This document shows positions 1 through 25,559 of a DNA stretch of 64,000 bases, one piece after another. Where the stretch lies: the NCBI GenBank assembly GCA_019894975.1, contig JAGXNO010000006.1:39051-103050 (forward strand), read 5' to 3'. Position 1 is the first letter of the stretch; each line of letters starts with the position of its first letter. Position numbers and translations under genes: made by a program. This stretch comes from Promethearchaeota archaeon (GTDB lineage: Archaea; Asgardarchaeota; Lokiarchaeia; Sigyniarchaeales; SOKP01). The notes under the pieces were generated by a model. It had not been told where the DNA came from. It did not search any database and worked only from the letters and a program-made list of their open reading frames with translations.

Positions 1-437
1 TCTTGAATCGTCCCTCCCTCTAAGCTATTTCGTTTGGGAAATTTTTTATCTTCAATAATAACCATCGAAACACCCATATCTTCTAAAGCACGAATGAAAT
101 ATTCGAAATTCGCAGCTTCTCCGCCAGTATCTCCATCAATTATTATTGGTTTGTTTGAACCATTTAAAATTTGTCTAACAGTTTCGTATCTTGATTCCAA
201 TCCAATTAATCCAATATCGGGATATCCCTTAGCAGCACTATCAGTAAAACTACTAATCCAAAAACCGTCGAATTCAAGAATTTCATCTTGATGATGTTCT
301 CTTATGTTGTTTGCTATTATTGCACTAAGCCCGTTGTGTACTTCTAAGATTTTAACAATCTTTTTGTTGTGAAGTAATTCCTTCAACATTCTTCTTCTTA
401 CATGAGGAAGTTTACTGTTTTGTTTTTTGAATTCCAT
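1..437 (-). CDS. pepM: Phosphoenolpyruvate mutase (5' part; runs off left edge; absent from ORF track)
   Basis: Manual translation from ATG at 437: MEFKKQNSKLPHVRRRMLKELLHNKKIVKILEVHNGLSAII...FDGFWISSFTDSAAKGYPDI...KPIIIDGDTGG...GVSMVIIEDKKFPKRNSLEGGTIQ. It has the ICL/PEPM-family DGDTG motif and the PepM-diagnostic EDK-x5-NS motif (nt 53..24). Confidence 0.93.
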   Translation of the reverse strand, partial: MEFKKQNSKLPHVRRRMLKELLHNKKIVKILEVHNGLSAIIANNIREHHQDEILEFDGFWISSFTDSAAKGYPDIGLIGLESRYETVRQILNGSNKPIIIDGDTGGEAANFEYFIRALEDMGVSMVIIEDKKFPKRNSLEGGTIQ

Positions 438-603
438 TTTTATCACTTAGACATTCAGTTAGAATAAAATTTTGAAAAATTCTGGTTTAGGGAATGGTTA
501 GAATACCTAAATACATAAATATTAAAAAATTAATTAGTTTTTACATTTAGATTGATGTTTTGAATAAAAATAATAGGAAAAAAAAGATTAGTCTATAATA
601 TAT

Positions 604-1917
604 TTATAAATACTCTTTTCTCTCGGGCAAACTCTTCCAGTCTAATAATAAAACTAAACCACCTATTAGTGCTATTATTACCCAAAGTAAAAAAGCAGCC
701 CATGATCCCGCTGTGTCAATAAGGGCTCCTGAGGTAAAAGTAGTAATAGCAGCTCCAATATATCCCCATCCATCGATAAATCCCGTAGCAGCGGAGGCTG
801 CCTTCCGTGTAGCAAATTCCATAGGTATTGTAGAAACTAAAAGTGCATGCGGTGCAAAATTCAAAATCCCAATTAAAATCAATACAGGAATTCCAAAAAC
901 CAAATCAAGAGGGGGAAGTACTGTATAAATTAATAATACTAAGGATAGCAATATAAAAAAAGCGCATATTACAGGGATTCTTCTTTTTCCAGCAAATTTA
1001 TCAGAAATCCACGCACCTAGAAGAACTCCAATCAGACCCCCCAAGGGGTAGAAAATAGATTTCCAAACACCAAAAATACTCGTACCAGTTACTTCAGGAC
1101 TGAGTAGATATGGAAGCCAGTCTGTTAATCCATATCTTACCATATTCAAACAAAATAAACCAAAAGAAGCAAATAGAACAGTTTTGGTAAATAGAACTGT
1201 TTTAACAGTGTACTTAAAACCAACAAATTCATCGTCACGACATTCACCCATTACCATTTGACCTTCACATTCTTCTTCGATAGTTGGTAAACCAACCTCT
1301 TCAGGAGCATTTCTACAGCGTGCATAAAAATGTATCGCCAAAATCAACATGATAATTCCTGGAACTATAAATGAGAATCGCCAATTTAAACTAAGTGACT
1401 TAGTAATAACTATTGCAATTATCCAGGATACAACACCCCCCAGTAAATATGATGTAGCAAGTCTACTTGACCATTTCCCTCTGTCTTCTGCCGGGTACCA
1501 ATTAGCGATAGTTTTCACAGAAGGTGCCCATCCCATTGACTGAAAATATCCATTTAAACCCCAAAACAAGAATGCTACCCATATTAAATCAAATGCAGTT
1601 CCCATAAACAAATTGATGACTGAAGATACTATTAATCCTATTGCTATGAAACGCCTAGCTCCTATTTTATCACCTAAAAACCCATTAACAAATTGTCCAA
1701 AAGCATATGCCAGGAAAAATGTTGTCCCTACTAATCCCATTACAGTAGCTGAAATCCCATATTCAGACATAATAAATGGTTTCGCAATTGAAATATTAGT
1801 ACGGCCAATATAGTAAATCATGTAAGTAATCCAAACTGTGAAAAATATTCGCATTCTCCAGGATTTAAACTGAGATTTTACCTCGGCTTCACTTTTAGTA
1901 TTTAAATTTTCATTCAT
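604..1917 (-). CDS. MFS transporter, organophosphate:Pi antiporter (GlpT/UhpT/PgtP-like) family
   Basis: About 12 hydrophobic segments; N-terminal YYIGRTNISIAKP resembles GlpT helix 1; GFLGDKIGARR motif A; NGYFQSMGWAP; NWYPAEDRG. Confidence 0.85.
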   Translation of the reverse strand: MNENLNTKSEAEVKSQFKSWRMRIFFTVWITYMIYYIGRTNISIAKPFIMSEYGISATVMGLVGTTFFLAYAFGQFVNGFLGDKIGARRFIAIGLIVSSVINLFMGTAFDLIWVAFLFWGLNGYFQSMGWAPSVKTIANWYPAEDRGKWSSRLATSYLLGGVVSWIIAIVITKSLSLNWRFSFIVPGIIMLILAIHFYARCRNAPEEVGLPTIEEECEGQMVMGECRDDEFVGFKYTVKTVLFTKTVLFASFGLFCLNMVRYGLTDWLPYLLSPEVTGTSIFGVWKSIFYPLGGLIGVLLGAWISDKFAGKRRIPVICAFFILLSLVLLIYTVLPPLDLVFGIPVLILIGILNFAPHALLVSTIPMEFATRKAASAATGFIDGWGYIGAAITTFTSGALIDTAGSWAAFLLWVIIALIGGLVLLLDWKSLPERKEYL

Positions 1918-1945
1918 TTTCTTTACTCATATTTATATTTGTTAT

Positions 1946-2869
1946 CTATATTTTGCCATCTTTTATTAATTGTTGAGCATATTCAAAATCTTCGTCTGTA
2001 TCCATTTCCACCCATTCTCCTTTTATGTCTACTGAATACATTGGATAACCTCTGATAATAAGTTCCTCAAGCATATCTGTTAAATATGCCTTTTGTATTG
2101 AGGTAGCATCATGGAATCGTCCCTCAAACTTGCATGTCTTATTATATTTCGCACGATTATAATTGCGCATCAATATTTCTGCTCCTTTTTTTGAAAATTT
2201 CCCGAGACCGATGAATTCTCCATGACCAACATCAGGATTATAAAATTTTGATAGATGAATGATCTTACCATCTTCTACAATTGCTAACTCAGCTTCATCT
2301 GTAGGATGTTTTGTTCTTCCTTCATATCTTTTCCTCCAATCAGTATCTACGATAAAACTAAAATCGTAAGGTGAATCCATTAGCTTTTTAACAACATTAT
2401 CACTGTACAAAATATCTGAATATGTGAAAATAAAACCATCTTTCATTGCCTCCTCAGCGTAAAATAAAGATTCTAGAATATTATTATTATAATAATCATC
2501 ATTATCATAGTAGGCAATATTAGGTAAGTCAATTTTATCTTTTTGAAATCCTCGAACAATAGCAAAATCATCTATACCATTTTGACGAAAAACATCCATT
2601 GTCCGTTCAAGGATGCTTTTACCTTCAATTTCTAATAAACACTTTGGCTTATATTCCGTTAGAGGTCTTAATCTTGTACTCGGACCTGCAGCTATTATGA
2701 TTACTTTCATTTCTCTTACTTCCTTTTTTGTTTCATATCGTCTTACAATTCGCTCTAAAAGCGAAATATGTTCATTAAATTTTTCAGATGTTTTTTTATA
2801 TCCGATTTCTTTGACACTATCATAAACTTTCTTAATTTCTTCAAGATCAGAATATTTTTGTTTCGGCAT
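1946..2869 (-). CDS. LicC/PntC-type (phosphocholine/phosphonate) cytidylyltransferase with N-terminal HTH-like extension
   Basis: IIAAGPSTRLRPLTEYKPKCLLEI nucleotidyltransferase motif from residue ~54, YSDILY, GEFIGL, WVEMDTDED; preceded by a ~53-aa helical extension. Confidence 0.8.
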   Translation of the reverse strand: MPKQKYSDLEEIKKVYDSVKEIGYKKTSEKFNEHISLLERIVRRYETKKEVREMKVIIIAAGPSTRLRPLTEYKPKCLLEIEGKSILERTMDVFRQNGIDDFAIVRGFQKDKIDLPNIAYYDNDDYYNNNILESLFYAEEAMKDGFIFTYSDILYSDNVVKKLMDSPYDFSFIVDTDWRKRYEGRTKHPTDEAELAIVEDGKIIHLSKFYNPDVGHGEFIGLGKFSKKGAEILMRNYNRAKYNKTCKFEGRFHDATSIQKAYLTDMLEELIIRGYPMYSVDIKGEWVEMDTDEDFEYAQQLIKDGKI

Positions 2870-3148
2870 ATAATTATCTGAATGGTTTAATAACTTTACA
2901 AGTGCATTTACCTATAAAAACTTTTAGGAATTTTATCTTCAAAAGATTTTTTGGTTATATAGAAAACTATGAAATCTTATATAGGTAAATGGATTAGATT
3001 TTCATTTATTTATTAGGTATTCAAATCATTCTTTCCCTAACTTTAAATATCTTTTCTTTCTTATTCATTATTTTATAAGAACTCTTAGGAGTGTCAAAAG
3101 AAATATTTTATAATTCAATAAGTTTTTCAGGAGAAAAACAAGTATTAG

Positions 3149-4654
3149 TTATTTGTAATATTTTCTTAAATGTTTGTTAAAATACAGAGGAAAGTATAAT
3201 ATCCAAACAACTATTTCTTTCCATCTTTGGATCAATTGTCCTCTTCTTGCAATTATTGATCTTAATACAAATTTAACAAAACCAGTTTTGTTTTTCTGGT
3301 CTGACACATCATTTAATTTTGTATCCAGAAAAATAAAACGCTTTGTATATTTTCTATTCTTCTTTATTAATTTTTTTAGACCAAATCCCGTTAATCGATT
3401 ATAAAAAAGTATTGTAATGAATTCCTGGTCTTTCAATAATCCTTGGGATCTTAAATCTTCTTTTCTTATTATTTGGTTATCTTTCTTAAGATGATCCCTA
3501 AGAAATCTCACTAATTGGGGCGGAAATTGATCAGGTATTAAAATTTTTTCGGATTTTAAGGATACTAACGTACTCTGTTGATAGAGAGTACTTAAGATTG
3601 ATCCAAAATAACTATAAGCTTCAATCTCAGACTGGAGATAAAACTGATGCAAATCATTATATATCTCAGGATGCTTCTGACTTACGTCTTTTTTTTCCAA
3701 ATGATCTTCCTTTAAGTCAAATAACGAGAACTTCCCATTATCATTTAGTAATTTCCATCGATCTTCTATTATCATCGTTTTTTTAATTGATTGAAACATT
3801 AAATAACAATCTCCTCGAATTTTCCTATTTATATTGACATTAATATTATCTTCAATCAATTTCTTAAAAGATGTGGATTCTCTTTTATACGTGGGTTTAA
3901 AATCTAGATAATCAAGAATTGTCTCCATAAGATCCAAGAGGTATACGCGTTCTGTGAATACCTTTGGTTTAGATTTAGTAATGCTTTTAGGTAGCTTCAT
4001 AAATAATGCTGGTTGCATAGAGGACTGATGAATATCATCGAAATGCAGCAACTTCGCCTTTTTGTATAAATTCTTATCATAATATCCATGATCAGAATTA
4101 AGGATGAAAATTGAATCTTCCCAAAATTCATTTTCCTTCAAATAGCTTATAATTTTATTGATGTATAAATTCGCTTTAGGATCACTAGGTCTAAAGAATA
4201 AAAAAACAAGATTTTTCTGATTAGGTAAAATTTCTTGGGCAACTTGCATAAAAAGTTCATAAATTTCCTTACCATCTAACCAATGATCTCCTTGGTATAA
4301 TTCCTCCACAAAATATGGAGGTAAAATCTCTTTGGTAATTTCTACCTGTTCTCTTCCGAATATAATTGATTGGATATTGTAATTCTCCCTTTTTAGGGGA
4401 TAAATGAAATTTTCATGTTCTAAACTTGGCAAGTTTTCTAATGTGCGATAATAATCAGGAAAAATATAATAAGGAAATCTGCCCGTTAAAAAGGAAATAA
4501 GAGATAAGTTAGTAGAAGGAAATTGAGAAATACAATCTTCGAAATAAAATCCTTCATTATCATTTTTTAAAGTCTTATATACAGGAAGTAAACTATGTAA
4601 ATCTGGTCGTTCATAATTACATATTGAGTCAGTTACAATCCAGAAAATATTCAT
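3149..4654 (-). CDS. Alkaline phosphatase/sulfatase-superfamily protein with extra C-terminal domain
   Basis: NIFWIVTDS first metal ligand, SQFPSTNLS nucleophile region (no CxPxR), NSDHG, LFDLKEDHLEKKDV. Confidence 0.75.
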   Translation of the reverse strand: MNIFWIVTDSICNYERPDLHSLLPVYKTLKNDNEGFYFEDCISQFPSTNLSLISFLTGRFPYYIFPDYYRTLENLPSLEHENFIYPLKRENYNIQSIIFGREQVEITKEILPPYFVEELYQGDHWLDGKEIYELFMQVAQEILPNQKNLVFLFFRPSDPKANLYINKIISYLKENEFWEDSIFILNSDHGYYDKNLYKKAKLLHFDDIHQSSMQPALFMKLPKSITKSKPKVFTERVYLLDLMETILDYLDFKPTYKRESTSFKKLIEDNINVNINRKIRGDCYLMFQSIKKTMIIEDRWKLLNDNGKFSLFDLKEDHLEKKDVSQKHPEIYNDLHQFYLQSEIEAYSYFGSILSTLYQQSTLVSLKSEKILIPDQFPPQLVRFLRDHLKKDNQIIRKEDLRSQGLLKDQEFITILFYNRLTGFGLKKLIKKNRKYTKRFIFLDTKLNDVSDQKNKTGFVKFVLRSIIARRGQLIQRWKEIVVWILYFPLYFNKHLRKYYK

Positions 4655-4843
4655 TATCCCACCGGGCTACGTAATACTGTTTTTACCTAATTCAAACAAA
4701 ATGTATTTAATTATGAAATGTGTAAAAGAAAATTGTTAAAAAGATAAAAAGTTAATGTCGTAATTACAATTGAAGAGCTTTACAAGATTATAGCCAATTC
4801 GTGCTAGGAGAATTAATCTCCGTAAAAAGTGAGTTAAGATTTT

Positions 4844-5947
4844 TTATTTTATCACACATTTTTTATATATATCTAAAACTGTCAATGCACTTTCTTCCCA
4901 GGAGTACAACTTTATTCTTTCTAATCCTTTTTTAATTAGAGTCTTTCGTAGTACTTCATCACTTAGTAATTGAATAATTTTATCTGCTAATTCAGTGGGA
5001 TCTGAATTGTCTTTTAGGATCAATGCTGAATCACCAACTATTTCAGGAATTGCAAAAGCCTTTGATGTAATTACGGGGCACCCACATGCCATTGCTTCTA
5101 AATTTGGCATTCCAAAACCTTCAAAAAAGGATGGAAATAAAAACATCTCTGCATTATTCAAAAGGTTAATAACATCATTAACAGGTAAAAAACCTGTGAA
5201 AATAATATTATCGAGGATTTTTTCATTCTTAGCAAATTGTAATACTCGACTGTTTTTCCAACCTTTTCCTCCTAGAACTAACATTAAATCTTTTTTTTCT
5301 CTATTTATTATAGAAAATGCTTTTAAAATTGTCCAAGGATTTTTTCTTTCAGAAAATTTGCTTAAATGAAAAATGAAATGAGAATCAATGCCATATTTTT
5401 CATTTATCTTTTCAGATTTCTTTTCATAAACTCTAAAATCTTTATCCACAGCACTATGTGTAAAGAAGACCCTATTCTCTCTTACCCCATACTGATAAGT
5501 TACAAAATTTTTACCTGCGTTAGATCCTGAAAAAATATAATCCATCTTTCTAAAATAAACAGGCTTAATCAATTTCGAATGGATTCTTTTTAATTTATTG
5601 AATTGGTCTGGAAAGTAAAGTTCTGCTGCACCACCTCCATGAACAGTGGTTAGTTTCTTAGGTTTTTTTAACCATACGGGAGAAAGAATAGTTAAAGGGT
5701 AATAGTGAAGAATATCAAAATTTTCTTTTTTAAGTTTGAAATGTGCGAGTAATGGATTCTTTGGGATTATTAATTCTGTAGTTTTTTCATAAATTTCATG
5801 ATCATTTTTGGAATAATGAATCAGAACGATATTAAAATTTTTATTAAGTTTTAAGATATGAGATACGAGTTGTCTTAAATGAGACCCACTTCCACTAGTC
5901 CCTTGATCTATAGGTCTTGTAAATATTCCGATTTTTGGTTTACTCAT
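4844..5947 (-). CDS. Glycosyltransferase family 4
   Basis: FPSFFEGFGMPNLEAMACGCPVI (EX7E), ERKN. Confidence 0.92.
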   Translation of the reverse strand: MSKPKIGIFTRPIDQGTSGSGSHLRQLVSHILKLNKNFNIVLIHYSKNDHEIYEKTTELIIPKNPLLAHFKLKKENFDILHYYPLTILSPVWLKKPKKLTTVHGGGAAELYFPDQFNKLKRIHSKLIKPVYFRKMDYIFSGSNAGKNFVTYQYGVRENRVFFTHSAVDKDFRVYEKKSEKINEKYGIDSHFIFHLSKFSERKNPWTILKAFSIINREKKDLMLVLGGKGWKNSRVLQFAKNEKILDNIIFTGFLPVNDVINLLNNAEMFLFPSFFEGFGMPNLEAMACGCPVITSKAFAIPEIVGDSALILKDNSDPTELADKIIQLLSDEVLRKTLIKKGLERIKLYSWEESALTVLDIYKKCVIK

Positions 5948-5975
5948 AGTTTTATCAAATCTACAAAAATTAGTT

Positions 5976-6785
5976 CTAATTTACAATCGATTGATGAATT
6001 TTGATGACATCCTTTTCAATATTTTTTGCTTTGATTACCATGAATGTGATAAATACACCTCCCATGAAAATTACATAAACGATCATAATTGCTTCTAAAA
6101 TCCAGAATAACGTGAAATATATATACAACAACCAACCAATAAAGAAAATAGATGTGATCATATGAGTATGACTAAAAGCGTTTGTAAGATTTATAAAGAT
6201 AGCTTTGATGAGTTTCATCAGGCTCTTTTTAGAGGCTTTTTGTTCTTTTAACTCACCTTCTACTTCTATATTTTTATTTATGCTGCTTTTAGCGGAAGCA
6301 ACAGTGGCTATCTTACGAACTCTCCTTATCCCGATTAAAAAAAACGTTGCTATAATCCCAAAGAAGATATATAAAAATTCCGAATTGATTTTAAAGATGG
6401 AAAACCCAAATGTGAAAAAAAACCAACTTTGGAAAAATAAATGTCCAATTTCATCATAGTATATTCCCCTAAGTGATGTTTTTTTTTTATATCGAGCAAC
6501 TTCACCGTCAACTTCATCAGAAATATAGTAAACATATAGTAGGATAAATCCAATTATTATGAACAAATTATTACCAATCCCAATAAAAATTAAGCCTAAT
6601 AAACCTATTATAGAACCGGAAATTGTTATAAAATTTGCAGAAATTCGGGTTTTTACCAAGATCCATGTTATATATTTTGAGATAAAAGTAAAGATTGCAT
6701 GCCACCAATCTCTTTTAATCTTTCGTTTCTCAAGTTTGCTGCCTTGAATTATCTGTTTGAATTCTTTAAAACTTTCTGATGTCAT
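5976..6785 (-). CDS. CDP-alcohol phosphotransferase family membrane protein
   Basis: SANFIT plus DEVDGEVARYKKKTSLRGIYYDEIGH (DxxDGxxAR...GxxxD; fourth Asp is His); multiple TM helices. Confidence 0.85.
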   Translation of the reverse strand: MTSESFKEFKQIIQGSKLEKRKIKRDWWHAIFTFISKYITWILVKTRISANFITISGSIIGLLGLIFIGIGNNLFIIIGFILLYVYYISDEVDGEVARYKKKTSLRGIYYDEIGHLFFQSWFFFTFGFSIFKINSEFLYIFFGIIATFFLIGIRRVRKIATVASAKSSINKNIEVEGELKEQKASKKSLMKLIKAIFINLTNAFSHTHMITSIFFIGWLLYIYFTLFWILEAIMIVYVIFMGGVFITFMVIKAKNIEKDVIKIHQSIVN

Positions 6786-6939: not shown

Positions 6940-8592
6940 ATGGAACCTGAGCAACGAGAGAAATTACCGTTAGAGCGTAATACAGAATATAAAAATTTGG
7001 CCACGAACACGTTTTATTCATTTTTAATAAATTATGGGTCCCATTTTTTTACGCTTGTCTACTCATTTCTTTTAGCGAGATTAATAACAGATGAATCATG
7101 GGATTTCTTAATTCTGGCAACTTCTTATATCACAATTATTGTAATAATAACATCAATATTACCCCCAGGTTTAAACTATGCATTGAATTATTACATTCCA
7201 AGGTATCTAGCCTTAAATCAGAAGTATAAAATAAAATCATTAATCAGAAATTCATTAAAAGCAAAATTATCCTTTTTAATACCTGTTTTTATTATTAGTG
7301 TTATTGCGTTTAATATGTTTCAGGTTCTTTTTGCTATTAATTTAGAAGACAAGATAACACTTTTATATATACTTTCACCCCTTATTATCGTTCATAGTTT
7401 GACAAGAATATTAGAATCTATAAACCGTGGTTTTAGTAGATTTAACTATAATTTTTTATATTTAATTATGAAAAACTTGATACATATTTTACCTCTTATG
7501 ATTTTCTTCATTTTTGATATTAATATTACCGTAGAAGGTATTGCCATCATTGTAATGATTTCTTTTTTAATTCCATTTATTTTTAATTGTATATCTGTTT
7601 CTATATTATATTTAAGGATTAAATCATCTGAAACTAAACAAAACTCATTTAAAAAGGATATTTCGAAGACTTTTAAATACGGAAGTTATATAGGAATTAC
7701 TGATCTAATAAATAGAACTTGGAAAGAAACCCAACTTCAAGGTATTGGGATTTTTGAGTCAGCAGGGGCAGTCACGGGCTATAATATTGCTATTAATTAT
7801 CAAAGTTTATCTTTTTATTCTGTTCAGTCTATTAGTATTCCTCTGTTAACGTCTTTTACGAGTTTAACAACTAAAGAGAATTTTGATAAAGTAAATAAAA
7901 TCTATCGAATTGCTTATAAAATCACTCTCTTCTTATTACTAATTATTACAGGAGCCCTATTTTTTAGTATTGAGTTTTTATTAGACTTTGTCTTTCTAGA
8001 AGACCGCTTAATCTATTCGAACATTCTCAGATTATATCTAATCGCGGGGATCTTTCAGATTTTAGGAGAATTTATGCAAGCGTTTTTAAATGCTCAGCAT
8101 AAAGTGAAAATTACGTTGGGGTTGAAAGTTTTTTATATGTTATATTATATACCATTATTTTTTATTGGGCTTATCTATTTTGGCGTAGAAGGGGCCATAG
8201 TGCTTGGATTACTACTTGGAAATTTTATTTCTTTAGTTATTCAAATCATAGTGACCTATAAAATTGGAAAAATCAAATTAAATCTTCAAAAAATTATAAC
8301 TCAATACCTAATATTTTTCATTTCATTAGCTACAACAATAATCTTAAAATCTTTTATATATAAGGATTTAAGTTTAAGACTCATTGAAGATTTAGGGTTA
8401 ACTCTGTTCAAAAATTTTGATTTTCTGTCTATAGGGTTATTCCTTATACTTTTTATATTGCTAAATTTAGTATTTAACACGGTTAGTGACACCGATATTA
8501 AAAATTTCGAATCACTCTTAAATAAAGAAAGATTTTTAGATAGAGCTTTACAAAAAGGTTTAAATGGACTTAAGAAATTTACAAGAGGTTAG
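6940..8592 (+). CDS. Oligosaccharide flippase (Wzx/MOP superfamily)
   Basis: About 14 TM segments, KNLATNTFYS...LLARL N-terminus, glycan-locus context. Confidence 0.8.
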   Translation: MEPEQREKLPLERNTEYKNLATNTFYSFLINYGSHFFTLVYSFLLARLITDESWDFLILATSYITIIVIITSILPPGLNYALNYYIPRYLALNQKYKIKSLIRNSLKAKLSFLIPVFIISVIAFNMFQVLFAINLEDKITLLYILSPLIIVHSLTRILESINRGFSRFNYNFLYLIMKNLIHILPLMIFFIFDINITVEGIAIIVMISFLIPFIFNCISVSILYLRIKSSETKQNSFKKDISKTFKYGSYIGITDLINRTWKETQLQGIGIFESAGAVTGYNIAINYQSLSFYSVQSISIPLLTSFTSLTTKENFDKVNKIYRIAYKITLFLLLIITGALFFSIEFLLDFVFLEDRLIYSNILRLYLIAGIFQILGEFMQAFLNAQHKVKITLGLKVFYMLYYIPLFFIGLIYFGVEGAIVLGLLLGNFISLVIQIIVTYKIGKIKLNLQKIITQYLIFFISLATTIILKSFIYKDLSLRLIEDLGLTLFKNFDFLSIGLFLILFILLNLVFNTVSDTDIKNFESLLNKERFLDRALQKGLNGLKKFTRG

Positions 8593-12824: not shown

Positions 12825-14465
12825 TTGGATAAAGAAAGAATCCTAAAAGAAGCCCAAAGAATAGCAAAAGAATTCTCTTTTTGGATGGTTTCTGGTAATA
12901 TCGCTCATTTATATGGTCATGTTTATGAGACTCCAGAAAAAAATTTTGAATTAGAACTAAAATTTGATGAAACTTTTCCAAATAAACCTCCTCAATTGAT
13001 CTTTCACAAGGAAATTAAAGAATTGCTAGGAGAGATTCATTTAGAGAAATATAATCAATGGAACCCAGAGTTCAAAGTAGTCGATATTATCAAGGAACTA
13101 AAATTAAAAATTCAGGAAGCAGCAAATCTTTCAAAGACAGAAATAAAAGAAGAATTAAGTCCATTAGAAACAGCTGAAGAAAACTATGATGCTTCAGATT
13201 CTGAGGAATTTCTTGCTCCTGATCTAAATGAATACCCGGAAGAATTCCAACCAGAAGACTATATAACACCCTCAGATTTTAATAACGATTTAATTGATAG
13301 CGACCAAACATCGACAACTTTCTCAGAAGATAATAAGATCGAATCATATCAAGAACCAATTTTTGATGATACGGAACAACTAAGTTTAGAATTGACTACA
13401 GAATTAGGAATAATTCAACAAGAATATGCTTATGACCAAAAAGGGTCATCTGCTGCTGATATTAATGTTTATATTACAATTACGCTCTCAAAAACTTTTA
13501 TTATCTCTTTAAATTTTACAAATTTTCCAGAAAAACCCTTAATATCCCTGCCAGACGAAGTTAAAAATATTTTGATAGATCCAGAAAAAACATTAGATAC
13601 TTTGAAAAATTGGAATTCTAAAAATCCAGTACATATTATTGATATTATCCGTGAATTGGAAAGGAAGCTCTATTTTATCAAGGAAATAGAATCTCAATAT
13701 AAACACATTTCTGGTGAATATCAGTGTGAAAAAATTCCCGATAGTTTAACATCTGTTAAGGTCCATTTACTCACTTACGGTTTCAAGGAATATCTGGTAG
13801 TATTAGATCTAGAGCCCTATCCCAAACCCCCTATTATTGAATTACCATCTGAACTCCAGCACATTATTAATGTTCCCATCTCTGAGCTAAAATCATTCCA
13901 TAGCTGGATTGAAAACGAGACAGATGCAGTGGAAATTATTAGAGAGATCTCTTGGCTAGTAGATAAAAATTCTAGAATTAATTTTGAGATTGATTTATTG
14001 AAAGACCATTATAAAAACATTAAGTATGACCCCATTACCGCAATTCTTCTTGTTGAAATGAAGGGAAAAATGAAAACAGAAGATCTCACATTTGAATTTC
14101 AAATTAATTTACCTCCTGATTATCCTATGAAAGTACCTGATATAAAAGTGGTAAATGAATTTGAATTAGAAGCCCATGAGAAAATAAAAAATGATTTACA
14201 TGCTTCTTTTGATGACTTCTTTAAGGAATGGACACCCTTTAGTTATCTTGTTGATTTATTTAATTTAGTTTCTAAGAAAATATTCGAAGTATCCGTAGTA
14301 TCGTGTGTTATTTGCCACAAAATTGAATGTCCAAGTTGTACTAAAAAGATAGCGGGAGATGATAGTTGCCATACAGAATGCCCACATTGTAATAGAGCAT
14401 ATCATCGCCACTGTTGGGAACAAACTATACAATCATTTGGCAAATGTGGTTTTTGTCTTAGATAA
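12825..14465 (+). CDS. Multi-UEV/RWD (E2-like fold) protein with C-terminal C4HC3 RING-like zinc finger; putative E3 ubiquitin ligase
   Basis: Four repeats with (F/Y)PxxP turns (FPNKPP, FPEKP, YPKPP, YPMKVP), each followed by W...(V/I)(D/E)(I/L); C-terminal CVIC..CPSC..CPHCNRAYHRHCW..GKCGFC. Confidence 0.72.
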   Translation: MDKERILKEAQRIAKEFSFWMVSGNIAHLYGHVYETPEKNFELELKFDETFPNKPPQLIFHKEIKELLGEIHLEKYNQWNPEFKVVDIIKELKLKIQEAANLSKTEIKEELSPLETAEENYDASDSEEFLAPDLNEYPEEFQPEDYITPSDFNNDLIDSDQTSTTFSEDNKIESYQEPIFDDTEQLSLELTTELGIIQQEYAYDQKGSSAADINVYITITLSKTFIISLNFTNFPEKPLISLPDEVKNILIDPEKTLDTLKNWNSKNPVHIIDIIRELERKLYFIKEIESQYKHISGEYQCEKIPDSLTSVKVHLLTYGFKEYLVVLDLEPYPKPPIIELPSELQHIINVPISELKSFHSWIENETDAVEIIREISWLVDKNSRINFEIDLLKDHYKNIKYDPITAILLVEMKGKMKTEDLTFEFQINLPPDYPMKVPDIKVVNEFELEAHEKIKNDLHASFDDFFKEWTPFSYLVDLFNLVSKKIFEVSVVSCVICHKIECPSCTKKIAGDDSCHTECPHCNRAYHRHCWEQTIQSFGKCGFCLR

Positions 14466-18021: not shown

Positions 18022-20097
18022 ATGTCTAGTAAATCTAAATTAATAACTGCAATTGTATTACTAGCCGTTGGTGCTGGTTTAATACCAACTGGTCTTGTAA
18101 CAAACGATTACCTACGAGATCAAGTCTACGATGGAGTCCCTGAAGCTATGCTTAAGATTAAAGCTGATGCGGTTCCGGGTTTAGAAGATAAGATCCCGGT
18201 TTTAGGACTACCTGATATACTTAAGGGTGTTTTTGACCTAGCCTCTGCTGGGGTGGAACCGCTATTAAAAGTAAAAGCAACTCCTGACTCGTTATTGGGT
18301 TTAAAAGCTGAGATAGAAGGACAATTATTGGGTATAATTAACTTCGCAACATTAGCGCAAGGTATGGCCTTTGCTTTTAACACATTGAATGTATCCGTAG
18401 GACCAGCAGCCGCTTTAGACACATTCTTTAATAATGCTACGTATGCAGATCCTTACATATCTTTACCTAGTATTGCTATGATTGTGACAAATTTGAGTTA
18501 TTCACTTGCTGCGGCACAAGCATTATTATTTGATGGTATCTACGATGGGTCTTTTGTTAATCCATGGGGTTTACCTAGCAATACTGTTATGGGAATACTT
18601 GAGGAAATGGAATTCGGTACTGGAGCAAGCAACTTTTATACATTTATGGGAAATGCTTGGTATTGGAAATATGTAATAGGACCCTATTCTTACCCAATGG
18701 ATTCAGCGATGTATTTATACAACGCTACAGAAGCACAATTACTATCAATAACCGCTGGAGGTTATATGGATTGGGCATTTGCAAATTGGGTTCCCGGCGC
18801 GTTTGCAGCAACTTTTGGGATAACTGTTGCGGAAGCTCTTTCTACAGGTTTTTATCGACAATGGGCAAATGCTACATTTTTCGATGATGGAATCGATATT
18901 GGAGCATTTCTTGGTATTTCTGAGCTTAAGGGATTTGAAGTCGGGCTTCCTGATCCTACAAATATATCTATTGCAACTTGTATAGATCTATGGAATGTCT
19001 CACACCCATTATCATTTACAAATGAAAATGGATTGATGGACTGGTTAGATGCGGGTCTTGGGGATACTGACTTACAAACGACATTAATGACAACATTTAG
19101 CCTTACACCAACTCAACTGACAATGATAATTACGTGGTTAAGCAATTTCATTGACAATGTCACCCCTGCGTTAGTATTAGACGCAACCGGACAGACAGTA
19201 AGCCAACTTGCTACCTTAGCATTCTATGAACAATGGGCGAATGGTACCATATTTGGCGAAGTTGTTCTCCCTGATGGCTTTCTAGGTGAAATTGATGCTT
19301 CCTTCGGCGGAGCAGCTTACTTTGAAATAGGATTACCTTCACCAAGTGGTTTATCATTAGCTGAATGTATAAACTTATGGGATGTATTTAATGACAAAAC
19401 ATTCTTTTATGGTCCCAGTTTCACGAGTGTATGGTTACCTGCTTTGATGGGTGGTCCAACAACCGCTATTGAAACATACTTTTTGGTTAGTGCGGGTGAG
19501 GCAGCTGACCTTGTAACTTGGTTACGAGCTTTCGCAGATATGACAGGTGATCCTGCCACTAGTAAAGCAGCCATGGTGCTCGCTTATGACTATGGTCAAA
19601 CAATAACACAAATTGCTACAGCAGCGTTCTATGAACAATGGTCCAATGGAACCATTAATGGTGACGATGCTCTTCCAGATGGTTTTCTAGCTGAAAGAGT
19701 ACCGCCTATTTATGGGCCACCTTACTTTGAGATTGGTCTAAGCTTTTCAGCAACTCTAACACTTACTCAATGTGCAGCACTTTGGAATGTAAATAGTGAA
19801 TATTCCTTAGTAACTGTAAGTGGCATTCATAAATGGTACAAAGCAGCAGAAGGAAACACGATGTATACAACACTGGCAACACAAAATGGTGGCTTAAATT
19901 TTGTTCAAATGGGTGCAATTTTAGAGTGGCTACCCGTATTCAGAGATGTAATCGTGAATATTCTAGCTGAGGACGATAAGAATTTACCTATGGAACCATA
20001 TGATTTAGGTCAGACTTTAGCAATCAGTTTAGGTGCTGGGGGCGGAGCTTTAGCTGCTTTAGGCGTAGTACTACTTATACTTTCTAGGAGATCATAA
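18022..20097 (+). CDS. Large extracellular repeat protein with N- and C-terminal membrane anchors (putative surface glycoprotein)
   Basis: Hydrophobic N-terminal helix and C-terminal GAGGGALAALGVVLLILSRRS; three internal repeats; about 10 N-x-S/T sequons. Confidence 0.75.
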   Translation: MSSKSKLITAIVLLAVGAGLIPTGLVTNDYLRDQVYDGVPEAMLKIKADAVPGLEDKIPVLGLPDILKGVFDLASAGVEPLLKVKATPDSLLGLKAEIEGQLLGIINFATLAQGMAFAFNTLNVSVGPAAALDTFFNNATYADPYISLPSIAMIVTNLSYSLAAAQALLFDGIYDGSFVNPWGLPSNTVMGILEEMEFGTGASNFYTFMGNAWYWKYVIGPYSYPMDSAMYLYNATEAQLLSITAGGYMDWAFANWVPGAFAATFGITVAEALSTGFYRQWANATFFDDGIDIGAFLGISELKGFEVGLPDPTNISIATCIDLWNVSHPLSFTNENGLMDWLDAGLGDTDLQTTLMTTFSLTPTQLTMIITWLSNFIDNVTPALVLDATGQTVSQLATLAFYEQWANGTIFGEVVLPDGFLGEIDASFGGAAYFEIGLPSPSGLSLAECINLWDVFNDKTFFYGPSFTSVWLPALMGGPTTAIETYFLVSAGEAADLVTWLRAFADMTGDPATSKAAMVLAYDYGQTITQIATAAFYEQWSNGTINGDDALPDGFLAERVPPIYGPPYFEIGLSFSATLTLTQCAALWNVNSEYSLVTVSGIHKWYKAAEGNTMYTTLATQNGGLNFVQMGAILEWLPVFRDVIVNILAEDDKNLPMEPYDLGQTLAISLGAGGGALAALGVVLLILSRRS
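18844..19850 (+). repeat. Three intragenic ~125-135 aa repeats (FY.QW.N.T...DG...FE(V/I)GL...C..LW...W)
   Basis: FYRQWANAT (~18850), FYEQWANGT (~19222), FYEQWSNGT (~19627), each followed by FEVGL/FEIGL and CIDLW/CINLW/CAALW. Confidence 0.85.
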
Positions 20098-24117: not shown

Positions 24118-25506
24118 TTATAAATTAATTACATTTCCTTCGAAATCTAATGGTATTTTTACACCTAAAATGTTCAAGGAAGTAGGTGCTATGTCTAAGA
24201 TACTTCTTTCTCCTAAATCTTTTCCTATCTTCTTTTTTGGATCAAAAATTATATAAACTCCATGCCAGTCATGAACAGCATCATCAGGGCCAGTATCATT
24301 CTCATCAAGATACATTGAATCATACCCCACTGTTCCTGCTGATCTCCAATTTAAATTATCAAAATATACTAATAAATCAGGAGCATCTCCACGAATAATT
24401 TCGTATAATTCTTCCGGTTTGTACACTTTTGTATTCATAGGTTTTCCATTAGCATCCTTAATAGTCTTTAATTTTTTTGCGATTTCATTTCGAATGGTTT
24501 CATAATCTTCTTCTTTGATTATACCATTAATCTCTCTTCCTTCTAAATTCAAGAAAATTCGAGCATAATATCCTCCCCAACCCCAAGCATAAGTATTATC
24601 CCAATCTATATCAGCATTTTCAATTCTAGTTTTAGATTGTGGTTTAGTTTTGAATTTTAATAATCCTAATTTTTCTAAAGCCATATTTACACAGATTAAT
24701 CCTTTCATGGCCTTAGCACCATGATCAGATACAATCATTACTGATGTCTCTTCGTTTAATAATTCCAATATTTCTCCAATTTCATTGTCTAAGTATGAAT
24801 AGTACTTTTTCATCTCATTTTCGAATATATTACCCTCCTCATATTTTGGATGCTCTTTATCATAGAATTTCCAAAAAGCGTGATGAAATCTATCTAAACC
24901 AATAATTACAAAATGAAAGTAATCCCATTCTTTTGTTTGTAGTAAGTATCTGACTGTTTTGAATTGCATTCGTGTCATTTTATAAATTTCGTCTAGTAGA
25001 ACCTCTTTTTTCTCAACTCTGAAGTTAACATCAAAAATATATTCCCCGATATTTTCTTGGATTTCTTCTTTTAATTCTGGAGGATACGTAAATTCTGTAG
25101 TATTATCTGGAGTTATAAACCCAGAAACAAGACATCCATTAATTTTCTGAACAGGATATGTAGGAGGTATTCCCAATATACACGATTTTAATCCTTTTTC
25201 GCCAATAATATCCCAAACTTTTTGCTCCCTTATGTTGTAGGAAGATGCTATCCAAAAGTCATTATATGAATTTTCTTTTCTGTGTCTAAAACCATATAAA
25301 CCTAATGTTCCAGCTTTTTTTCCTGTAGCCATTACCATCCAAGCAGGAATTGTAATTGGAGGATCCGACGTTCTGAGTTTCCCGTAAACTCCTAATTTCA
25401 TTAGTTTCGATATATTGGGACAATTTTCCTTAAAATCTTCAAATAAGGTTTTTGGAGCTGCGCAATCTAACCCAATAATAACTAGCTTTTTTTTTTTTTT
25501 TGGCAT
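24118..25506 (-). CDS. Alkaline phosphatase superfamily, nucleotide pyrophosphatase/phosphodiesterase-like protein
   Basis: IIGLDCA, PPITIPAW (Thr nucleophile), DRFHH, VSDHG, DDAVH, DIAPT. Confidence 0.85.
   Translation of the reverse strand: MPKKKKKLVIIGLDCAAPKTLFEDFKENCPNISKLMKLGVYGKLRTSDPPITIPAWMVMATGKKAGTLGLYGFRHRKENSYNDFWIASSYNIREQKVWDIIGEKGLKSCILGIPPTYPVQKINGCLVSGFITPDNTTEFTYPPELKEEIQENIGEYIFDVNFRVEKKEVLLDEIYKMTRMQFKTVRYLLQTKEWDYFHFVIIGLDRFHHAFWKFYDKEHPKYEEGNIFENEMKKYYSYLDNEIGEILELLNEETSVMIVSDHGAKAMKGLICVNMALEKLGLLKFKTKPQSKTRIENADIDWDNTYAWGWGGYYARIFLNLEGREINGIIKEEDYETIRNEIAKKLKTIKDANGKPMNTKVYKPEELYEIIRGDAPDLLVYFDNLNWRSAGTVGYDSMYLDENDTGPDDAVHDWHGVYIIFDPKKKIGKDLGERSILDIAPTSLNILGVKIPLDFEGNVINL
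25487..25501 (-). repeat. 15-nt poly(A) tract (coding strand) in codons 2-7 of the AP-superfamily gene
   Basis: Run of 15 T on the + strand; reads ATG CCA AAA AAA AAA AAA AAG (MPKKKKK). Confidence 0.9.
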
Positions 25507-25559
25507 GGTTTCTTACATTTTATATTAAAATCATTTTTTTAAAGGTTGAGAATAAAATT

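What the first reader, a model, noticed from the sequence alone, without database searches (positions are those of the whole stretch)
1..6785. Candidate phosphonate (C-P) biosynthesis and surface-glycan/lipid tailoring system in an Asgard-like archaeon
Seen in sequence: six co-oriented minus-strand genes. In transcription order they are a CDP-alcohol phosphotransferase, a GT4, a Thr-nucleophile sulfatase-fold protein, a LicC/PntC-type cytidylyltransferase, an OPA-family MFS transporter and a PEP mutase with the diagnostic EDKKFPKRNS motif (missed by the ORF track). The block is divergent from a flippase. Established: PepM catalyses the first C-P bond-forming step of nearly all phosphonate pathways, and PntC-type enzymes activate 2-aminoethylphosphonate as a CMP conjugate for phosphonoglycans and phosphonolipids. 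The archaeal case I know is Nitrosopumilus methylphosphonate; I know of none characterised in Asgard archaea. Inference: this organism makes a phosphonate, activates it with CTP and transfers it to a surface glycan or ether lipid.
Basis: partly seen in the sequence, partly recalled or inferred. Interest (0 to 1): 0.9.

Follow-up and report, generated by a model that had tools for sequence, protein, structure and literature searches.

The report
Asgard hydroxyethylphosphonate cassette in glycan locus
This Loki-type Asgard archaeon carries a complete, ordinary-looking gene set for making the C-P compound 2-hydroxyethylphosphonate and activating it with CTP, sitting as an optional four-gene cassette inside a variable cell-surface glycan locus; a related cassette is also in the cultured strain Ca. 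Lokiarchaeum ossiferum, so the prediction can be tested.

Summary
Six co-oriented minus-strand genes (CDP-alcohol-phosphotransferase-like, GT4, Thr-type sulfatase-fold, LicC-like nucleotidyltransferase, OPA-type MFS, PepM N-terminus with EDKKFPKRNS) face a Wzx-like flippase.

The missing enzymes lie just left of the window. PepM (569 aa, fused to a PF12804 domain) is followed by an Fe-alcohol dehydrogenase, a second LicC/PntC-like nucleotidyltransferase and phosphonopyruvate decarboxylase. PepM and Ppd pass their NCBIfam equivalog cut-offs. No PhnW-type transaminase was found, so the predicted product is 2-hydroxyethylphosphonate (HEP), not AEP.

All named relatives are Asgard MAGs (mostly Promethearchaeota). 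pepM occurs in 42 of 400 genomes of the phylum, including cultured Ca. Lokiarchaeum ossiferum.

The four-gene core is a presence/absence cassette. Five pepM-less genomes of the same genus keep some or all of the in-window tailoring genes intact. In another genus the cassette and the NT307-MFS pair occupy the same slot. The in-window genes are therefore recurrent companions of pepM, not phosphonate-dedicated enzymes, and the transfer step stays inferred.

This is a new member of a known kind, the bacterial Pnt-type phosphonoglycan/phosphonolipid clusters. First-stage notes of this scan had already flagged this same locus. Interest is moderate.

The parts
1..446 (-). 5' part (N-terminal 148 aa) of the PepM-nucleotidyltransferase fusion gene. 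The full gene is 569 aa at G000:C142:37787-39496 (L002:8737-10446) and runs off the left edge of the window.
   Evidence: PF13714. TIGR02320 equivalog 349 bits against a cut-off of 319.55. EDKKFPKRNS motif. Groups with PepMs and not with PrpB-like paralogues.
604..1917 (-). OPA-family (GlpT/UhpC/PgtP-like) MFS organophosphate:phosphate antiporter homologue. Always paired with the NT307 gene.
   Evidence: MFS_1 E 2.5e-51. TIGR00881 245 bits, below its cut-off. GlpT 1PW4 E 1.3e-43 over the full length, with both positions I recall as the phosphate-binding Arg conserved. NT307->MFS adjacency holds in every locus examined.
1946..2869 (-). NT307: LicC/PntC-type nucleotidyltransferase (307 aa) with a ~50-aa N-terminal extension. 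Paralogue of the domain fused to PepM.
   Evidence: PF12804/PF00483. Best solved relative is LicC 1JYK, E 7e-15; it also hits 6PD1. Motif GPSTR-x8-PK keeps the Arg and Lys of the GXG(T/S)RX4-8PK consensus. 33% identical to the fused NT domain over 257 aa.
3149..4654 (-). Sulfatase-fold (alkaline-phosphatase superfamily) protein with Thr at the nucleophile position, no signal peptide, and an extra C-terminal helical/alpha-beta domain.
   Evidence: Pfam Sulfatase E 5.8e-9. AF2 model pLDDT 88.4. Foldseek best matches are S1 sulfatases and phosphonate monoester hydrolases, TM about 0.5-0.55. D9, S47, T48, D188-H189, H204 and D207 are conserved. The family was found only in Asgard MAGs and marine-sediment metagenomes.
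4844..5947 (-). GT4 glycosyltransferase.
   Evidence: Glycos_transf_1 E 5.1e-38. Conserved next to the sulfatase-fold gene in related loci.
5976..6785 (-). CDP-alcohol-phosphotransferase-like membrane protein. Member of a large subfamily in which the fourth motif Asp is His (DxxDGxxAR-x8-G-x3-D-x3-H).
   Evidence: Weak PF01066 hit. Best solved relative is AF2299 4O6M, E 5e-5. The His is conserved in all orthologues and in 116 of 126 parsable top representatives.
6940..8592 (+). Divergently transcribed Wzx/MATE-like polysaccharide flippase.
   Evidence: Polysacc_synt and MatE. Conserved in this position in related loci.

Best explanation
The locus has two layers.

(B) An optional four-gene cassette lies just left of the window (G000:C142:34757-39496): PepM fused to a PF12804 domain, Fe-alcohol dehydrogenase, the LicC/PntC-like nucleotidyltransferase NT236, and phosphonopyruvate decarboxylase.
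- It converts PEP -> phosphonopyruvate -> phosphonoacetaldehyde -> 2-hydroxyethylphosphonate (HEP).
- It then makes CMP-HEP, most likely through NT236.
- The PepM-fused domain has Glu where PntC has the essential Arg15. It may be non-catalytic or non-canonical.

(A) The in-window genes are a companion module of a variable surface-glycan island.
- NT307 and the OPA-type MFS form a fixed pair. I read it as import plus CTP activation of an organophosphate or organophosphonate head group, a Lic-like salvage route.
- The His-variant CDP-alcohol phosphotransferase, GT4 and the Thr-type sulfatase-fold enzyme act on the acceptor.

CMP-HEP is then transferred onto a cell-envelope glycoconjugate (glycan more likely than lipid). 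In this genome the only nearby candidates for that step are the His-variant CDP-OH enzyme and the sulfatase-fold enzyme. Other Asgard lineages use TagF-like or LicD enzymes.

Shown: gene identities, cassette structure, distribution and co-location.
Inferred: HEP as the end product, which NT acts on it, the transferase, the acceptor, and the direction and substrate of the MFS.
For: Enzyme identities:
- PepM and Ppd pass equivalog cut-offs (349 against 319.55; 424.4 against 312.5).
- The Fe-ADH's best family is the phosphonate-associated TIGR03405.
- The genome has a single pepM and no PhnW (best 34.5 bits against a cut-off of 360.8).

Conservation of the core:
- PepM-NT/Fe-ADH/NT236/Ppd is conserved in every sufficiently long HEP-type locus among 26 named Asgard loci.
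- The same core also occurs in a distant relative, there with LicD.

Nucleotidyltransferases:
- NT236 and NT307 hit LicC and the T. denticola PntC fusion 6PD1. Both keep the Arg and Lys of GXG(T/S)RX4-8PK.
- The fused domain has Glu at Arg15 in 115 of 115 family members. R15A PntC has under 10% activity (PMC6697681).

Cassette behaviour:
- pepM-less genomes G195, G202 and G204 carry CDPOH-GT4-Sulf-NT307-MFS-(Epim)-X760 with exactly the four core genes missing.
- A 38-nt exact match links our Ppd-X760 spacer to the empty site in G204. Cassette GC (0.305) is close to the genome's (0.316).

Companions recur independently:
- In Ca. L. ossiferum a Fom1-type cassette abuts NT307 (59% identity) and MFS (56%).
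- Outside the genus, the only two relatives of the CDP-OH protein in the phylum (G013, G234) lie 2.5 and 7 kb from pepM.
- A metagenomic His-variant sits beside CTP_transf_like and PEP_mutase genes.
- Sulf is present in 16 of 16 pepM+ genomes of the genus.

Same-slot alternative:
- L058 (pepM+) and L089 (pepM-) have flanks 90-96% identical. Between a TagF-like gene and the flippase they carry either the cassette or NT307-MFS.

Other points:
- The own genome has no TagF-like and no LicD gene.
- Glycan context: flippase, GT4s, GT2, sugar epimerases/dehydratases and methyltransferases surround the locus.
- Precedent: bacterial clusters with a ppm-fused PntC, a second PntC and CDP-OH or LicD transferases (PMC6697681, PMC8942020).
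Against: - No biochemical or expression data.
- The Fe-ADH is below its equivalog cut-off (207.6 against 423.7), and its solved relatives are generic alcohol dehydrogenases.
- All five in-window tailoring genes persist without pepM. These loci also carry the His variant and the Thr nucleophile, so neither feature is a phosphonate-specific adaptation.
- MFS orthologues are split about evenly between pepM+ (15) and pepM- (14) genomes.
- Five pepM+ genomes of the genus showed no CDP-OH gene.
- The L. ossiferum unit has no transferase or glycan gene next to it.
- The fold search gave no specific function for the sulfatase-fold protein.
- MpnS/HEPD-type HEP-consuming enzymes were not searched genome-wide.
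Confidence: 0.7

Rival explanations
1. The in-window module (CDP-OH-like, GT4, sulfatase-fold, NT307, MFS) has nothing to do with phosphonate. It installs an ordinary phosphodiester head group, for example glycerol phosphate taken up by the GlpT-like MFS and activated to a CDP-alcohol. The HEP cassette is merely a neighbour, and its product is used elsewhere or released as a free small molecule.
For: - The module is intact in pepM-less genomes.
- 14 of 29 MFS-bearing genomes lack pepM.
- NT307-MFS sits next to TagF-like CDP-glycerol-type transferases.
- The L. ossiferum cassette has no adjacent transferase.
- In G216 a sulfotransferase sits between GT4 and the sulfatase-fold gene, where the other loci have the CDP-OH gene.
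Against: - Co-location with pepM recurs in independent lineages and with both PepM architectures.
- The cassette and NT307-MFS occupy the same slot in orthologous loci, which suggests interchangeable supply functions.
- The own genome has no other known class of CMP-phosphonate transferase, neither LicD nor TagF-like.
Confidence: 0.2
2. The pathway makes 2-aminoethylphosphonate, which is activated as CMP-AEP by PntC-type enzymes. This is the classical phosphonoglycan/phosphonolipid route.
For: - The NTs resemble PntC/LicC.
- AEP-type versions of the cassette, with Aminotran_5 in place of Fe-ADH, exist in related loci L057 and L060.
Against: - This genome's cassette has Fe-ADH at that position.
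- No PhnW/AepZ anywhere in the genome: best 34.5 bits against a cut-off of 360.8, at 95% completeness.
Confidence: 0.05
3. HEP is only an intermediate towards methylphosphonate (as in Nitrosopumilus) or towards a fosfomycin/phosphinothricin-like natural product.
For: HEP is the branch point for those pathways. Fom1-type CyTase-PepM fusions occur in other Asgard genomes.
Against: - No cupin-type dioxygenase, radical-SAM methyltransferase or other tailoring enzyme is conserved in any of the loci examined.
- MpnS and HEPD need O2, while cultured Lokiarchaeia are anaerobes (own knowledge).
Confidence: 0.04
4. The contig is misbinned bacterial DNA.
For: The cluster design matches bacterial Pnt clusters. 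The MAG shows 8.55% contamination.
Against: - The contig is 103 kb and carries Arf-family GTPase and E2/RWD genes.
- The same locus, with the same flanks, occurs in 26 named Asgard MAGs from independent studies.
- A related unit lies in the closed 6.04-Mb genome of Ca. L. ossiferum.
- Cassette GC equals genome GC.
Confidence: 0.01

Closest known systems
Bacterial phosphonyl-tailoring (Pnt) clusters of oral anaerobes (Treponema denticola, Olsenella uli, Atopobium rimae; Rice et al. 2019, PMC6697681)
   Same: Ppm fused to a PF12804/PF01467 nucleotidyltransferase domain, plus a separate LicC-like PntC one or two genes away, plus Ppd. Glycan-tailoring genes nearby. The logic is cytidylyl activation followed by transfer to the cell surface.
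   Different: Those clusters make AEP through an aminotransferase and use LicD-like transferases. Here an Fe-ADH predicts HEP, the genome has no LicD, the host is an archaeon, and the fused domain lacks the Arg15 equivalent.
'Burkholderiales_CDP-OH' ppm neighbourhoods (Group 1 predicted phosphonolipids) and the sulfatase-rich Selenomonas neighbourhoods (Group 4) (Li & Horsman 2022, PMC8942020)
   Same: Ppm-PntC fusion, second PntC and a CDP-OH-type phospholipid gene. Sulfatase-family genes occur next to ppm. The products are still uncharacterised.
   Different: The bacterial clusters are AEP- or 1-hydroxy-AEP-based. I could not compare their CDP-OH proteins with the His-variant subfamily found here.
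Early fosfomycin steps: Fom1 (CyTase-PepM), Fom2 (Ppd), FomC (Fe-ADH)
   Same: PEP -> PnPy -> PnAA -> HEP -> CMP-HEP. Fom1-type N-terminal CyTase-PepM fusions are the second PepM architecture in Asgard genomes, including Ca. L. ossiferum.
   Different: No Fom3/Fom4-type downstream enzymes. In the window's genome the fused domain is C-terminal and belongs to the LicC/MobA fold class, not the CTP_transf_like class.
Nitrosopumilus maritimus methylphosphonate cluster
   Same: An archaeal PepM/Ppd/alcohol dehydrogenase route through HEP, whose product is isolated as an adduct rather than as the free acid (PMC8942020). From my own recollection, not checked here, that cluster also carries nucleotidyltransferase and sulfatase-family genes.
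   Different: No MpnS in or near any Asgard locus examined. Different phylum. An anaerobic host makes an O2-dependent step unlikely.
HEP-bearing exopolysaccharide of Stackebrandtia nassauensis (cited in PMC8942020)
   Same: HEP itself is the head group attached to a polysaccharide.
   Different: Actinobacterial. I did not compare the transfer machinery.
Lic pathway (LicB transporter, LicA, LicC, LicD) for phosphocholine decoration
   Same: Import of a head-group precursor, CTP activation by a LicC-type enzyme, and transfer to a glycan. The NT307-MFS pair has that import-plus-activation logic.
   Different: The transporter is an OPA-type MFS, which implies an already phosphorylated or phosphonylated substrate. 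There is no kinase and no LicD.

Membership tests
PEP mutase (PepM/Ppm; TIGR02320) | Score above the equivalog cut-off and below the cut-offs of the sister families (phosphonopyruvate hydrolase, PrpB, CPEP mutase) | tested here: met
   349 bits against a cut-off of 319.55. PPH 157.7 against 374.4. PrpB 113.9 against 354.4. CPEP mutase 53.4 against 420. 351 bits in the genome search.
PEP mutase (PepM/Ppm; TIGR02320) | EDKxxxxxNS active-site motif | tested here: met
   EDKKFPKRNS. Present in all 115 full-length relatives. The Asgard PrpB-like paralogues have EDQxWPKRCG instead and form a separate clade with 100/100 support.
PEP mutase (PepM/Ppm; TIGR02320) | A coupled PnPy-consuming enzyme that pulls the unfavourable equilibrium | tested here: met
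   Ppd in the same operon-like run, TIGR03297 424.4 bits against a cut-off of 312.5. Conserved synteny.
Phosphonoacetaldehyde reductase (PhpC/FomC type; TIGR03405) | Equivalog score, and the position between PepM and Ppd | tested here: inconclusive
   Best NCBIfam hit, but 207.6 bits against a cut-off of 423.7. Solved relatives are generic Fe-ADHs. Synteny with PepM/Ppd holds in 22 loci.
PntC/LicC-type cytidylyltransferase | GXG(T/S)RX4-8PK motif with Arg15 and Lys25 (PMC6697681) | tested here: met
   NT236 has GIGKR-x8-PK and NT307 has GPSTR-x8-PK. Both keep the Arg and the Lys, and each departs from the strict consensus at one other position (Lys for T/S in NT236; Ser for the second Gly in NT307). 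Best solved relatives are LicC 1JYK and 6PD1.
PntC/LicC-type cytidylyltransferase (domain fused to PepM) | GXG(T/S)RX4-8PK motif with Arg15 | tested here: not met
   The domain reads G-S-D-P-E-x3-PK: Glu at the Arg15 position and a shortened spacer, in 115 of 115 family members. The Lys of PK is kept. Activity cannot be judged from sequence.
PntC/LicC-type cytidylyltransferase | Substrate preference for a phosphonate (AEP or HEP) over phosphocholine or other phosphoesters | not testable with these tools
   Needs an enzyme assay.
CDP-alcohol phosphotransferase (PF01066) | D1xxD2GxxAR...GxxxD3xxxD4 with all four Asp | tested here: not met
   D4 is His in the window's protein, in all orthologues and in 116 of 126 parsable top representatives. 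Pfam score is borderline (19.4 and 28.8 bits against a cut-off of 22). It is best described as a His-variant sister subfamily.
S1 formylglycine sulfatase / phosphonate monoester hydrolase | C/S-x-P-x-R formylglycine motif | tested here: not met
   The position reads T-N-L-S-L: Thr (Ser in 1 of 18) and no Pro or Arg. The fold is S1-like at TM about 0.5-0.55. The metal ligands D9 and D188-H189 are kept.
OPA family MFS (GlpT/UhpT/PgtP) | Full-length homology and the two phosphate-binding arginines | tested here: met
   GlpT 1PW4 E 1.3e-43 over residues 11-421. Arg is aligned to the Arg of GlpT's 'LVRK' and 'LLRYG' motifs. That these are the binding residues is my own knowledge. Below all NCBIfam cut-offs, so the substrate is unknown.
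Nitrosopumilus-type methylphosphonate system | MpnS next to the PepM/Ppd/ADH genes | tested here: not met
   No candidate gene in the cluster or in any related locus. A genome-wide search was not done because no reference sequence or family model was available.

The most novel reading that the evidence does not exclude
Asgard archaea, including cultivable Ca. Lokiarchaeum ossiferum, decorate their envelope with 2-hydroxyethylphosphonate. The decoration is serotype-like and modular. A de novo HEP cassette and an import-plus-activation pair (OPA-type MFS plus LicC-like NT) are interchangeable suppliers of the activated head group. A previously unrecognised His-variant branch of CDP-alcohol phosphotransferases, perhaps together with a Thr-nucleophile sulfatase-fold enzyme, is the CMP-phosphonate:alcohol phosphonotransferase. 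The product would be the first archaeal HEP-phosphonolipid or lipid-linked phosphonoglycan.
Probability: 0.3. Interest if true: 0.7.

Novelty: new member of a known kind. Interest (0 to 1): 0.5.

Why it matters
Little is known about the chemistry of the Asgard cell surface, which mediates the syntrophic contacts central to models of eukaryogenesis.

A phosphonate head group resists phosphatases. It would be a distinctive, easily detected (31P-NMR) surface or lipid marker, and a possible sedimentary source of C-P compounds.

A related cassette is present in a cultured strain, so the prediction can be tested directly. For phosphonate biochemistry, the locus offers natural presence/absence variants that could help identify the still unknown phosphonyl transferases.

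The design itself is the known bacterial Pnt logic, and public annotation already labels several of these proteins 'phosphoenolpyruvate mutase'.

Tried and rejected
- **X760 (760-aa polytopic GT-C-like protein downstream of Ppd) as part of the phosphonate system: rejected as specific.** Atlas structural neighbours are DUF2206, DUF6541, STT3, PMT and ArnT. It is present in 47 of 53 genomes of the genus regardless of pepM, so it is a conserved neighbour.
- **His-for-Asp in the CDP-OH motif and the Thr nucleophile as phosphonate-specific adaptations: rejected.** Both are present in pepM-less loci.
- **Mobile-element origin of the cassette: no support.** There are no flanking repeats (the longest shared word between the two spacers is a 13-nt AT-rich match) and no GC deviation.
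- **Foldseek on the sulfatase-fold model:** only generic S1 sulfatase and phosphonate monoester hydrolase matches, no functional clue.
- **PDB sequence search on X760:** no hits.
- **The listing of cluster members on ten distant PepM-NT proteins:** no names returned.
- **Literature searches:** phosphonate with Asgard, Lokiarchaeota or pepM found no paper on Asgard phosphonate biosynthesis. The library is incomplete, so this is not proof of absence.
- **Known phosphonate catabolism in the genome:** no PhnJ, and no PhnX above cut-off. Uptake by the MFS for phosphorus nutrition through known routes is therefore unlikely.

Full report
**1. Observation**

The window starts inside a run of six minus-strand ORFs: 3-446, 604-1917, 1946-2869, 3149-4654, 4844-5947 and 5976-6785. 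They face a plus-strand ORF at 6940-8592.

- PEP_mutase
- MFS_1
- NTP_transf_3 / NTP_transferase
- Sulfatase (C-terminal part only)
- Glycos_transf_1 / GT4
- a weak CDP-OH_P_transf hit
- Polysacc_synt / MatE for the divergent gene

The translation of 3-446 contains EDKKFPKRNS.

**2. What lies beyond the left edge**

The window is G000:C142:39051-103050. I fetched the upstream DNA as L002 (window coordinate = L002 coordinate minus 10000).

The PepM ORF is 569 aa, with PEP_mutase at residues 21-281 and an NTP_transf_3 domain at 324-428. On the same strand, with spacers of -4 to 23 nt, it is followed by:
- a 381-aa Fe-alcohol dehydrogenase
- a 236-aa nucleotidyltransferase (NT236)
- a 378-aa thiamine-diphosphate enzyme

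After a further 113 nt comes a 760-aa polytopic protein (X760).

NCBIfam results:
- PepM scores 349 bits on TIGR02320 (cut-off 319.55). It fails phosphonopyruvate hydrolase (157.7 against 374.4) and PrpB (113.9 against 354.4).
- The TPP enzyme is phosphonopyruvate decarboxylase (TIGR03297, 424.4 against 312.5).
- The Fe-ADH's best model is the phosphonate-associated TIGR03405, but below its cut-off (207.6 against 423.7).

A maximum-likelihood tree puts the window's PepM inside the EDK...NS PepMs. A 100/100 branch separates these from the Asgard PrpB-like paralogues, which carry EDQxWPKRCG.

The genome has one pepM and no PhnW/AepZ transaminase (best 34.5 bits against 360.8). The predicted phosphonate is 2-hydroxyethylphosphonate (HEP).

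**3. Whose genome**

All 26 named loci recovered with the PepM-NT alignment are Asgard MAGs. Most are Promethearchaeota or Promethearchaeia, with one labelled Odinarchaeota and one Hermodarchaeota.

The contig also carries an Arf-family GTPase and an E2/RWD protein. Cassette GC (0.305) matches the genome (0.316). Misbinning is excluded for practical purposes.

**4. Distribution**

In 400 genomes of the phylum, 42 have a pepM above cut-off, including 16 of 53 genomes in the window's genus. Two architectures occur:
- PepM with a C-terminal PF12804 domain, about 565-570 aa (ours)
- Fom1-like CTP_transf_like-PepM, about 435 aa

G138, which has the Fom1-like form, is Ca. Lokiarchaeum ossiferum B-35 (UYP47934.1, 6,035,313-bp contig). 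NCBI labels its PepM '2-methylisocitrate lyase'.

**5. Core cassette and variable partners**

Across the 26 loci, PepM-NT, Fe-ADH, NT236 and Ppd stay together wherever the contig is long enough. The one exception is L057, where an aminotransferase replaces the Fe-ADH. The longer order CDPOH-GT4-Sulf-NT307-MFS-core-(epimerase)-X760 holds in the closer relatives.

More distant versions of the fusion (55-57% identity) show the same core with other partners:
- with LicD and a TagF-like gene (L062)
- with Aminotran_5 in place of the Fe-ADH, plus three TagF-like genes (L060)

In other Asgard lineages the partners are:
- a TagF-like Glyphos_transf gene of about 400 aa next to the cassette (L046, L053, L055, L058)
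- two LicD genes plus a His-variant CDP-OH gene (G013)

The window's own genome has no TagF-like and no LicD gene.

**6. The core is a presence/absence cassette**

Counts within the genus (53 genomes besides G000):

| Gene | Genomes with it | Relation to pepM |
|---|---|---|
| pepM | 16 | - |
| Sulfatase-fold gene | 21 | all 16 pepM+ genomes, plus G195, G202, G204, G214 and G216 |
| CDP-OH gene | 16 | 11 pepM+ and 5 pepM- (G195, G202, G203, G204, G214) |
| X760 | 47 | independent of pepM |

The five pepM-less genomes that carry the sulfatase-fold gene are 88-100% complete.

The contiguous pepM-less loci of G195, G204 and G202 read flippase | CDPOH-GT4-Sulf-NT307-MFS-(epimerase)-X760. Exactly the four core genes are absent.

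G204 is among the closest relatives of the window's genome by X760 identity (76%; MFS 86%), while several pepM+ genomes are more distant (57-62%). I infer at least two gain or loss events.

The spacer upstream of X760 shares a 38-nt exact match with the G204 empty site. There are no flanking repeats.

The pepM-less loci also carry His at the fourth motif position and Thr at the nucleophile position. Neither feature is an adaptation to phosphonate.

**7. Companions that recur independently**

NT307-MFS pair:
- NT307->MFS is a fixed pair in every context examined.
- In Ca. L. ossiferum the pair (59% and 56% identity) lies back-to-back with a Fom1-type cassette. Ribosomal-protein and other unrelated genes flank the unit.
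- MFS orthologues occur in 29 other genomes of the phylum: 15 pepM+ and 14 pepM-.

Same-slot replacement:
- L058 (pepM+) and L089 (G237, pepM-) are orthologous loci with flanks 90-96% identical.
- Between a TagF-like gene (56% identical between the two loci) and the flippase (65%), they carry either the cassette or NT307-MFS.
- I read these as alternative suppliers of an activated head group: de novo synthesis versus import plus activation.

MFS properties:
- It aligns over its full length with GlpT (E 1.3e-43).
- It has Arg at the two positions I recall as GlpT's phosphate-binding arginines.
- The genome lacks PhnJ and has no PhnX above cut-off. Catabolic uptake through known routes is therefore unlikely.

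CDP-OH protein:
- It belongs to a large His-variant subfamily: 2452 representatives at E <= 1e-3, and 116 of 126 parsable top hits have His.
- In the phylum it occurs in only 19 of 400 genomes, 14 of them pepM+.
- The only two carriers outside the genus (G013, G234) have it 2.5 and 7 kb from a Fom1-type pepM.
- One metagenomic member sits beside pepM. Another sits in a glycan locus with no pepM on its 6.3-kb contig.

**8. The three nucleotidyltransferases**

- NT236 and NT307 match LicC (1JYK) best, and also 6PD1, the T. denticola PntC-aminotransferase fusion.
- The PepM-fused domain is a full-length paralogue of NT307 (33% over 257 aa).
- Rice et al. define the consensus GXG(T/S)RX4-8PK. They show under 10% activity for R15A, K25A and K153A PntC (PMC6697681).
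- NT236 and NT307 keep the Arg and the Lys. The fused domain has Glu at the Arg position and a shortened spacer in all 115 full-length family members.
- The same paper describes bacterial clusters with both a ppm-fused and a separate NT. That matches the arrangement here.
- I therefore assign HEP cytidylylation to NT236 as the most likely candidate. The role of the fused domain is left open.

**9. The sulfatase-fold protein**

- The family was found only in Asgard MAGs and marine-sediment metagenomes: 58 hits, down to 37% identity.
- The AF2 model is confident (pLDDT 88.4, pTM 0.89).
- Its best structural matches are S1 sulfatases and phosphonate monoester hydrolases, at TM about 0.5-0.55 and 12-16% identity.
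- D9, D188-H189, H204 and D207 are invariant. Thr48 (Ser in 1 of 18) replaces formylglycine.
- It is the most constant neighbour: 16 of 16 pepM+ genomes of the genus have it, and it lies directly upstream of PepM-NT in G179, G183 and G210.
- It also occurs without pepM, next to a sulfotransferase in G216 and near NT307-MFS in G143.
- Its reaction cannot be deduced from these data.

**10. Comparison with known systems and novelty**

The logic matches the bacterial phosphonyl-tailoring pathway: a Ppm-NT fusion, a second PntC, then transfer to a surface polymer (PMC6697681). It also matches the 'Burkholderiales_CDP-OH' and sulfatase-rich neighbourhoods catalogued by Li and Horsman (PMC8942020).

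The HEP branch is already known from fosfomycin, from Nitrosopumilus and from a Stackebrandtia exopolysaccharide.

What is new:
- the host lineage
- the cassette behaviour
- the same-slot alternative with NT307-MFS
- the recognition of the His-variant CDP-OH subfamily as a recurrent pepM companion

I found no paper on phosphonate biosynthesis in Asgard archaea. Public annotation does already call several of these proteins PEP mutase.

Verdict: a new member of a known kind, of moderate interest, and directly testable in a cultured strain.

Noticed in passing
G138 (Ca. Lokiarchaeum ossiferum B-35), L081:7796-14777: The cultured strain carries a compact six-gene unit: NT236, Fe-ADH, Ppd and CyTase-PepM on one strand, NT307 and MFS on the other. 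It lies between ribosomal-protein L1/L10, bactofilin-like and NUDIX genes. NCBI names its PepM '2-methylisocitrate lyase', which looks like a misannotation given the EDK...NS motif and 397.7 bits on TIGR02320.
   Followed up: partly
L002:3311-5593 (G000:C142:32361-34643), just left of the window: A 760-aa polytopic protein with no Pfam or PDB sequence hit. Its Atlas structural neighbours are GT-C enzymes (DUF2206, DUF6541, STT3, PMT, ArnT). It is near-universal in the genus (47 of 53), with two paralogue groups (>=53% and 37-46% identity).
   Followed up: partly
window 12825-14465 (+); also L046:16052-17707: A ~550-aa protein with ubiquitin-conjugating (UQ_con) and RWD domains, an Asgard eukaryote-signature-type gene. 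It recurs near the pepM cassette in a different Asgard lineage.
   Followed up: no
L002:121-1773 (G000:C142:29171-30823): A 550-aa protein with an Arf/Roc/Ras-type small GTPase domain at residues 88-220.
   Followed up: no
window 24118-26708 (-): A type I phosphodiesterase/NPP-family protein (462 aa, PF01663 E 2.7e-46) lies directly next to an ATP sulfurylase. An FkbM methyltransferase and GDP-mannose dehydratase/epimerase genes are nearby. This indicates sulfate and other decorations in the same glycan island.
   Followed up: no
window 18022-20097 (+): A 691-aa ORF with no Pfam hit coincides with the highest-GC segment of the window (0.396 against about 0.29).
   Followed up: no
L065:9053-9967 (G216:C87): In one pepM-less relative, a sulfotransferase (PF00685) sits between GT4 and the sulfatase-fold gene, where other genomes have the CDP-OH gene. 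The slot may exchange different anionic decorations.
   Followed up: partly
L002:5594-5706 compared with related loci: Most relatives have an extra NAD-dependent epimerase/dehydratase gene between Ppd and X760. It is absent from the window's genome, where the spacer is only 113 nt.
   Followed up: no
G225:C16:4364-4699 and G208:C20:50303-50536: Fragmentary copies of the CDP-OH gene: one carries an internal stop codon and the other is an 82-aa remnant. This suggests ongoing decay or turnover of this gene in some genomes.
   Followed up: no
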